A stretch of 64,000 bases of DNA from Laetmonice hystrix (lineage: Eukaryota): positions 9,674,001 to 9,738,000 of the forward strand of contig OZ249436.1 of the NCBI GenBank assembly GCA_965235115.1, given 5' to 3'. Below are positions 30,553 to 63,584 of the stretch, piece by piece. The number at the start of each line of letters is the position of its first letter. Positions within the stretch are counted from its first letter, which is position 1. A program made the position numbers and the translations under genes. Below the pieces are notes generated by a model, which was not told the DNA's origin, searched no databases, and was given only the letters and a program-made list of their open reading frames with translations.

Positions 30553-63584
<33,032 letters not shown>

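What the first reader, a model, noticed from the sequence alone, without database searches (positions are those of the whole stretch)
32009..32024. Stop-containing tail exon: SM1/SM2-like switch in an invertebrate non-muscle myosin II
Seen: a 16-nt exon with a good acceptor and donor in the 7.6-kb terminal intron. Inclusion ends the protein at ...GGDKLRSS*, removing the roughly 40-aa non-helical tailpiece. Its start (G TCC TCG) mirrors the last exon (G TCG TCG). Known: vertebrate MYH11 makes the short-tailed SM2 isoform with a small stop-containing exon at this junction, and the tailpiece controls filament assembly. Inference: a convergent or ancient tailpiece switch. The stop is only 6 nt from the last junction, so it should be NMD-resistant.
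Basis: partly seen in the sequence, partly recalled or inferred. Interest (0 to 1): 0.7.

Follow-up and report, generated by a model that had tools for sequence, protein, structure and literature searches.

The report
Hidden tail microexons in annelid myosin
The last intron of this worm's smooth/non-muscle myosin gene holds one tiny exon shared with other annelids and a second, unproven one that would cut off the myosin's tail, much as vertebrate smooth-muscle myosin does.

Summary
The 16-nt candidate (32024-32009, minus strand) is in the sequence as described, in the last intron of this annelid's single smooth/non-muscle myosin II gene. It is not shown to be used. The one RNA-like run gives only the skipped form. 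No homologue turned up in four complete related introns. Its splice signals plus stop are met by chance in 72% of simulated introns. In its favour: a top-six donor, a 54-nt AG-free zone, no allelic differences around it, and an acceptor region that looks like an old copy of the last exon's. I put it at about 55% real.

It matches a microexon in 12 of 16 related genomic loci, has a nearby GCATG, and its relative is spliced into another annelid's transcript.

Short alternative tails at this junction are already in database models for 9 of 14 molluscs and some insects. The tail switch is therefore widespread in protostome myosin II and works like SM1/SM2, but homology to the SM2 exon is not shown.

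The parts
38299..38492 (-). Penultimate constitutive exon of the smooth/non-muscle myosin II heavy chain (end of the coiled coil, ...[10 protein letters not shown])
   Evidence: Gene model; spliced to 30682 in the RNA contig; single match in the genome
30683..38298 (-). Terminal intron, 7,616 nt, phase 2
34268..34282 (-).
   Evidence: Top pair of 5,031 (17.4 bits). Best hit in both strands of the window to a matrix from 11 related exons (23.0 bits, next 11.9; 0 of 1,000 simulations). Related exon included in protein P0005. Flanks single-copy.
34237..34241 (-). GCATG element 27 nt downstream of the 15-nt exon (RBFOX-type motif; label recalled)
   Evidence: Related loci carry a GCATG about 20 nt after their exon (GCTTG in L009). 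The aligner did not put the window's copy in the same columns.
32009..32024 (-). Candidate 16-nt stop-containing cassette exon (Arg-Ser-Ser-stop); unproven
   Evidence: flanks single-copy; not seen in RNA contigs
32016..32054 (-). Acceptor context of the candidate, resembling the last exon's acceptor context (possible old duplicate)
   Evidence: Best gapped match of 8,021 AG sites for -30..+9, but only about 70th for wider windows
31225..32122 (.). 898-nt stretch holding the candidate exon, with no allelic difference listed in three DNA-like runs of one individual
   Evidence: P between 1.5e-5 (25 independent variants) and 0.06 (9 clusters)
30680..30769 (.). Recent 44-nt tandem duplication of the last exon's acceptor region, which creates a second AG at 30726
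   Evidence: the RNA contig uses 30682
30553..30682 (-). Coding part of the last exon: 42-residue non-helical tailpiece and stop
   Evidence: covered by the 7,087-nt RNA contig

Best explanation
The terminal intron of this annelid's only smooth/non-muscle myosin II gene is a tail-splicing cassette with two small exons. Exon A (15 nt, in frame) inserts the basic peptide KQKDR at the start of the non-helical tailpiece. It is old within annelids and probably tissue-regulated through the downstream GCATG (regulation inferred). Exon B (16 nt) arose by local duplication of the last exon's acceptor and first codons, with the third codon turned into a stop and a strong donor behind it. When included in some tissue or stage it removes the acidic, serine-rich tailpiece, alone or after exon A. 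That would change filament assembly and phosphorylation control, as SM2 does (inferred from vertebrate work). Shown: the sequence, the conservation of A, the inclusion of an A-like exon in a relative, and the skipped form in this species. Inferred: inclusion of A here, any inclusion of B, tissue pattern and biochemical effect. I put A alone at about 0.9; the confidence given is for the whole statement including B.
For: Exon A: top pair of 5,031; 23.0 bits against 11.9 for the next site, 0 of 1,000 simulations. Its relative is present in 12 of 16 genomic loci examined (11 distinct), always 18, 21 or 27 nt. P0005, from a 7,137-nt contig, reads GGDKL-SKRLKDR-TSRLGRSS. The window, P0005 and those loci lie on separate branches of one clade with Lamellibrachia (support 90). 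Exon B: only 6 donors this strong in 21,933 intron positions, about a 1.6% chance within 60 nt of a given acceptor. Its AG-free zone is 54 nt (2.6% of 1,233 intronic AGs). A short stop exon with an AG-free zone arose in 5.6% of simulations, and one with the mirrored start in 0.2%. Its acceptor context is the best match to the terminal acceptor of 8,021 AG sites. It lies in an 898-nt stretch without allelic differences. The same layout, an in-frame microexon followed by a short stop tail, is in clam models (Dreissena, Mya, Ruditapes). The gene is single-copy, and the Platynereis orthologue is expressed around the gut (PMC5167519, passages), so one gene must serve both roles.
Against: The one RNA-like run joins 38299 directly to 30682 in an unbroken contig at depth 104. 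No contig of it holds exon B, and exon A lay outside the stretch laid (contigs drop minor forms). No homologue of B in 4 of 4 complete related introns or in the partial ones. 0 of 14 annelid-like full C-termini are short. The acceptor is weaker than 22 of 27 real ones. Signals plus stop alone are at chance level (72%). The mirror, AG-free-zone and alignment-window tests were chosen after seeing the site, and the similarity to the terminal acceptor fades in wider windows. The polymorphism gap comes from one individual and is only P 0.06 if variants are clustered. Complete intron L042, in the same clade, lacks exon A too.
Confidence: 0.55

Rival explanations
1. Exon A is real, but the 16-nt site is an unused pseudo-exon: a decayed copy of the terminal acceptor, or a chance AG..GT pair.
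For: Skipped form only. Chance-level signals. No homologue in relatives. The same acceptor has been duplicated again recently (44-nt tandem copy), and that copy is not used in the RNA contig, so idle copies do arise here.
Against: A decayed copy would have a donor this strong within 60 nt only about 1.6% of the time. It also sits in a stretch without allelic differences, between flanks with 7 and 18 differences.
Confidence: 0.35
2. The acceptor at 32024 is real but starts an alternative last exon running to a poly(A) signal near 31030, not a 16-nt cassette. The protein would end in the same Ser-Ser-stop.
For: AATAAA at 31030 on the coding strand. The stretch without allelic differences extends about 785 nt downstream of the exon but only 98 nt upstream. 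Low-depth RNA pieces lie at 31155-31382 and 30908-31049.
Against: One piece runs more than 100 nt past the AATAAA, as unspliced pre-mRNA would. The strong donor at 32009 would be unexplained.
Confidence: 0.07
3. Neither small exon is used in this species, and the KQKDR match is a relic or chance.
For: The RNA contig skips both.
Against: 0 of 1,000 simulations reach the match score. The exon keeps frame, has the best splice pair in the gene's introns and retains the downstream GCATG.
Confidence: 0.03

Closest known systems
Vertebrate MYH11 exon 42 (SM1/SM2 switch)
   Same: Same myosin II clade. A small cassette in the last intron carries a stop and replaces a 43-residue tail by 9 residues (PMC12633039 and PMC2173570, passages). 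The predicted short form here also has 9 residues beyond the Arg that aligns to chicken Arg1935.
   Different: The annelid junction is 7 codons further on, so the cassette encodes only Ser-Ser, not 9 new residues. Inclusion is not shown. An in-frame microexon lies upstream. MYH11 is a dedicated smooth-muscle paralogue, whereas this gene is single-copy.
Database-annotated short-tail isoforms of mollusc and insect non-muscle myosin II (e.g. Dreissena X12-X15, Mya X5-X7, scallop X6, Aplysia X10, Biomphalaria X4, Cryptotermes X3)
   Same: Orthologous gene, same last junction, short tails of 1-17 residues; in clams an in-frame microexon can precede the stop tail.
   Different: No sequence likeness to Ser-Ser-stop beyond Dreissena's one-Ser tail. 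These are automatic models, and whether they come from cassette or last exons cannot be read from proteins.
Differentially included C-terminal exons of invertebrate striated-muscle Mhc1 (Drosophila penultimate exon; three in Capitella)
   Same: Short, poorly conserved penultimate exons (1-13 residues) that swap the myosin II C-terminus (PMC2257972 and PMC3912159, passages).
   Different: A different paralogue (striated clade); this gene is of the smooth/non-muscle clade.

Membership tests
Smooth/non-muscle class II myosin heavy chain (MYH9/10/11/14, zipper orthologues) | Myosin II motor plus coiled-coil rod | tested here: met
   Exons match residues 226-1981 of a full-length relative; Pfam Myosin_tail_1, E 1e-33
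Smooth/non-muscle class II myosin heavy chain (MYH9/10/11/14, zipper orthologues) | Closer to MYH9/10/11 than to sarcomeric myosins | tested here: met
   Penultimate exon: MYH10 2e-14, MYH11 3e-14, MYH9 7e-10, against MYH7 3e-5. Named hits are non-muscle/myosin-10 or unannotated myosins.
SM1/SM2-type tail switch (MYH11 exon 42) | Small cassette in the last intron, after an Arg codon at the end of the coiled coil | tested here: met
   Present in the sequence, with the junction 7 codons beyond chicken Arg1935
SM1/SM2-type tail switch (MYH11 exon 42) | In-frame stop that shortens the tailpiece | tested here: met
   Predicted 9 against 49 residues after the aligned Arg
SM1/SM2-type tail switch (MYH11 exon 42) | The exon is included in mRNA | tested here: inconclusive
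   Only the skipped form, in one RNA-like run kept as contigs, which drop minor forms
SM1/SM2-type tail switch (MYH11 exon 42) | Descent from the same ancestral exon as MYH11 exon 42 | not tested
   No SM2 exon sequence came from any call. No short tails in 5 of 5 echinoderm/hemichordate species. The likeness of the candidate to the annelid last exon points to a local origin.
SM1/SM2-type tail switch (MYH11 exon 42) | Smooth-muscle and developmental regulation; altered filament assembly | not testable with these tools
   Needs tissue RNA and rod-assembly assays
Annelid in-frame KDR tail microexon (defined here) | Frame-keeping exon ending K-D-R with a GTT-GT donor in the last intron, conserved across annelid branches | tested here: met
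Annelid in-frame KDR tail microexon (defined here) | Included in transcripts | tested here: inconclusive
   Included in P0005 (1 of 14 annelid-like C-termini); skipped in this species' one RNA contig
Striated-muscle Mhc1 penultimate-exon switch | The gene belongs to the striated myosin clade | tested here: not met

The most novel reading that the evidence does not exclude
Tail switching by small exons in the last intron is an ancestral bilaterian control on the single smooth/non-muscle myosin II gene, older than MYH11. The exons turn over in sequence, but the switch persists in annelids, molluscs, insects, tunicates and vertebrates. It lets one gene build both non-muscle minifilaments and visceral smooth-muscle filaments, and SM2 is its vertebrate survivor. 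The lysine-rich annelid exon (SKSKQKDR/KQKDR) and the gastropod stop tail (SSKKEKE) may be the same ancestral exon.
Probability: 0.2. Interest if true: 0.7.

Novelty: new member of a known kind. Interest (0 to 1): 0.45.

Why it matters
The tailpiece sets how myosin II filaments assemble. Deleting it raised the critical concentration 50-fold in a non-muscle rod (PMC2289591, abstract), and SM2 rods assemble less stably than SM1 rods (PMC2173570, passages). Invertebrates mostly have one smooth/non-muscle gene. If they switch its tail by splicing, that gives a testable molecular marker separating smooth myocytes from non-muscle cells, which bears on the origin of bilaterian smooth muscle. For this genome it adds one near-certain and one possible microexon of the sort that gene predictors miss.

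Tried and rejected
RNA evidence. No RNA holder was listed. Run X3 turned out to hold a spliced contig, but it is contigs only. The stretch laid (29300-32880) left out the upstream exon and exon A, so only the junction at 30682 could be read. The lack of RNA cover at 31383-32880 is no evidence.

Repeat origin. A transposon origin for either small exon was rejected, because both flanks are single-copy.

Proteins ending in ...KLR* or ...DKSR* (e.g. P0001, P0293, P0410, P0346) were rejected as short isoforms. They fit read-through of genomic contigs into the intron.

Second conserved block. A block with ACTAAC and YGCY motifs in the related introns has no match in the window's intron (best E 0.99), and its AG is not conserved, so it is not an exon. 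YGCY counts near the 16-nt exon are no higher than elsewhere in the intron.

Other candidate exons. A one-off stop-exon candidate in L011 has no match in L022 or L026. Three other pairs in the intron outscore the 16-nt one without being conserved (30960-30933, 35181-35138, 31565-31548). A GC donor at 32014 would give the same protein.

Earlier findings. Four look-ups returned nothing.

Literature. Ten searches listed no paper on tail isoforms of invertebrate non-muscle myosin II, judged from titles and abstract starts. The library lacks most subscription papers. I recall a 1996 study of Drosophila zipper splicing that included a tail variant, but no call showed it.

Full report
Gene and organism. 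The minus strand from beyond 62,000 down to 30,553 encodes a class II myosin heavy chain. Its exons match residues 226-1981 of a full-length relative, and 27 of 30 junctions were resolved with confidence (3 were left out of later training). The penultimate exon is closer to MYH10, MYH11 and MYH9 than to MYH7 and has one match in the 627-Mb genome. The best named hit is Lamellibrachia (80%). A rod tree puts the window with Lamellibrachia and unnamed sequences in one clade (support 90), apart from brachiopod, nemertean and molluscs. So this is an annelid's single smooth/non-muscle myosin II gene.

Observation. The candidate exon, its stop, the 6-nt distance to the donor, the 7,616-nt intron and the loss of 40 residues are all as described. 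The junction is 7 codons beyond the vertebrate SM1/SM2 junction (Arg1935 from PMC2173570 passages). The short form would carry 9 residues past the aligned Arg, the long form 49.

Is it more than chance? By splice signals, no. The donor scores 8.8 bits (above 17 of 27 real donors) and the acceptor 5.0 (above 5 of 27). The pair ranks 8th of 5,031, and four pairs in the same intron score higher. A pair as good with an in-frame stop appeared in 69% of 200 and in 72% of 500 simulated introns. Added features lower this. Length up to 30 nt plus an AG-free zone of 40 nt or more appeared in 5.6%, and the mirrored start in 0.2%. The region from -30 to +9 is the best gapped match to the terminal acceptor among 8,021 AG sites and beats all 26 other real acceptors, but it ranks only about 70th in wider windows. 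These tests were picked after seeing the site. They suggest an old local duplication of the last exon's start, with Ser-Ser-Arg turned into Ser-Ser-stop. An idle copy would have so strong a donor within 60 nt about 1.6% of the time.

Reads. Four runs of one sample were laid on 29300-32880. X3 holds a 7,087-nt contig at depth 104 whose loose end at the last exon is the penultimate exon, so the main form skips everything in the intron. Contigs drop minor forms, so this shows that skipping dominates in that sample, not that inclusion never happens. In the three DNA-like runs, 7 allelic differences lie in 30683-31224 and 18 in 32123-32880, but none in 31225-32122, which holds the exon. P is 1.5e-5 if the variants are independent and 0.06 if they form 9 clusters. 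This is one individual and a weak hint of constraint.

A better exon in the same intron. Of 41 loci, I examined the 16 genomic, annelid-like ones; the other 25 were transcripts or other animals. Twelve of the 16 (11 distinct, since L010 repeats L011) carry an in-frame microexon of 18, 21 or 27 nt encoding S-K-S-K-x-K-D-R, usually with GCATG about 20 nt downstream. The four without it are L025 and L032 (only 272 and 152 nt of intron), L003 (partial) and L042 (complete, 707 nt). The top-scoring pair in all of the window's myosin introns, 34282-34268, encodes KQKDR in frame. A matrix built only from the 11 related exons finds it as the best site in both strands of the window (23.0 bits, next 11.9; 0 of 1,000 simulations), with GCATG 27 nt downstream. 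Protein P0005, from a 7,137-nt contig, has SKRLKDR inserted at exactly this place, which shows inclusion in another annelid. The window, P0005 and those loci sit on different branches. This exon is very probably real. That it is RBFOX-regulated rests on the recalled motif only.

No homologue of the stop exon. Thirteen related introns were scanned, four of them complete (L011, L022, L026, L042), and no shared stop exon appeared. Those with enough sequence are only 55-65% identical to the window in the rod, so a young 16-nt exon could be missing for age alone. None of 14 annelid-like full C-termini is short (P0002, P0004-P0008, P0125, P0130, P0141, P0164, P0417, L002, L004, L005). Three of these were not in the tree, one is a genome prediction, and most are assembled contigs showing the main form.

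Other animals. Among mollusc species with two or more full-length models, 9 of 14 have short tails at this junction: Saccostrea cucullata, Ruditapes, Dreissena, Mya, Mercenaria, two scallops, Aplysia and Biomphalaria. The five without are S. echinata, Ostrea, Littorina, Babylonia and Sinanodonta (for three large clusters only 15 members were listed). Several tails are shared between species, which argues against noise: IVVDDKD/AVLDDEK/IVEDKE in clams, SGEKASN in both scallops, and SSKKEKE/SSKPTKEKE in the two gastropods. In clams an in-frame RDS or RGDS piece can precede the stop tail, the layout proposed here. Cryptotermes, Anabrus and an unnamed termite-like sequence have 16-17-residue alternative tails, while Periplaneta has none in 5 models. 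Ciona and Clavelina have 27-28-residue alternative tails. Echinoderms and the hemichordate have none (0 of 5 species).

Mechanism. The long tail is acidic and serine-rich (8 D/E and 10 S/T in 49 residues). In vertebrates, tail phosphorylation lowers filament stability (PMC13031461, passages), and tail deletion raised the critical concentration of a non-muscle rod 50-fold (PMC2289591, abstract). SM2 rods assemble less well than SM1 rods, although a tailless smooth rod assembled as well as SM1 (PMC2173570, passages), so the direction of the effect cannot be predicted. Exon A would add three basic and one acidic residue at the base of the tail. Exon B would remove the tail and its likely phosphorylation sites. 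The Platynereis orthologue is expressed around the gut (PMC5167519, passages), so smooth muscle is the natural place to look. All of this is inference.

Comparison and novelty. It works like MYH11 exon 42 (PMC12633039, passages) and like the penultimate exons of invertebrate striated Mhc1 (PMC2257972 and PMC3912159, passages). A review places vertebrate non-muscle splice variants in the motor domain (PMC3535348, passages). PMC13102872, PMC13506201, PMC11153339 and PMC13044900 were read as passages for background only. Ten searches listed no paper on invertebrate non-muscle tail isoforms (titles and abstract starts only), but the isoforms are in public gene models, and I recall an older zipper study that I did not see. 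No supplements were read; the exon alignments in the supplements of the two Mhc papers may bear on this. Membership in the SM2 family by descent is not shown, and the likeness of exon B to the annelid last exon favours a local, convergent origin.

Verdict. Exon B is about 55% likely to be real and exon A about 90%. This is a new member of a known kind; interest 0.45.

Noticed in passing
window 30680-30769: A 44-nt tandem duplication of the last exon's acceptor makes a second AG at 30726. Its use would give a Cys-rich 19-residue tail. The RNA contig uses 30682, and no 44-nt gap is listed in the DNA-like runs.
   Followed up: partly
L003, about 2536-2544 and 3241-3257: Two strong candidate microexons (9 nt in frame, 17 nt frame-shifting), alike at both ends, in the same intron of another annelid-like locus; the contig ends before the last exon.
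   Followed up: partly
L008-L031, 750-2,350 nt into the terminal intron: A second conserved non-coding block with ACTAAC and YGCY motifs (QKI- and MBNL-like; the QKI label is recalled); no match in the window.
   Followed up: partly
L008-L031, inside the KDR microexon: An internal GT five bases into the exon scores as well as the outer donor; its use would shift the frame of the last exon.
   Followed up: no
window 38299-38319: Annelid myosins have 7 extra codons (xGGDKLR) before the last intron compared with insects and vertebrates, possibly from a shifted donor or a fused microexon.
   Followed up: partly
P0251, P0261 against L008-L031: Gastropod stop tails (SSKKEKE, SSKPTKEKE) resemble the annelid in-frame exon (SKSKQKDR); possible common origin, not tested.
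   Followed up: no
window 30908-31049 and 31155-31382: Low-depth (about 5) RNA pieces at the 3' end of the intron, probably unspliced pre-mRNA; an AATAAA lies at 31030.
   Followed up: partly
window 36147-37059 and about 32900-33110: A 38-nt tandem array of about 23 copies, and a short dispersed repeat with inverted ends and many genomic copies, inside the terminal intron.
   Followed up: no
window 14031-15502, 22454-22936, 1918-2286, 7297-10131: Neighbours: an ECSIT gene (Pfam), an MBOAT-like exon (below the curated cut-off), a PDZ-LIM-like N-terminus (likeness recalled, no Pfam hit) and a 944-codon Pro-rich open frame without a Pfam match.
   Followed up: no
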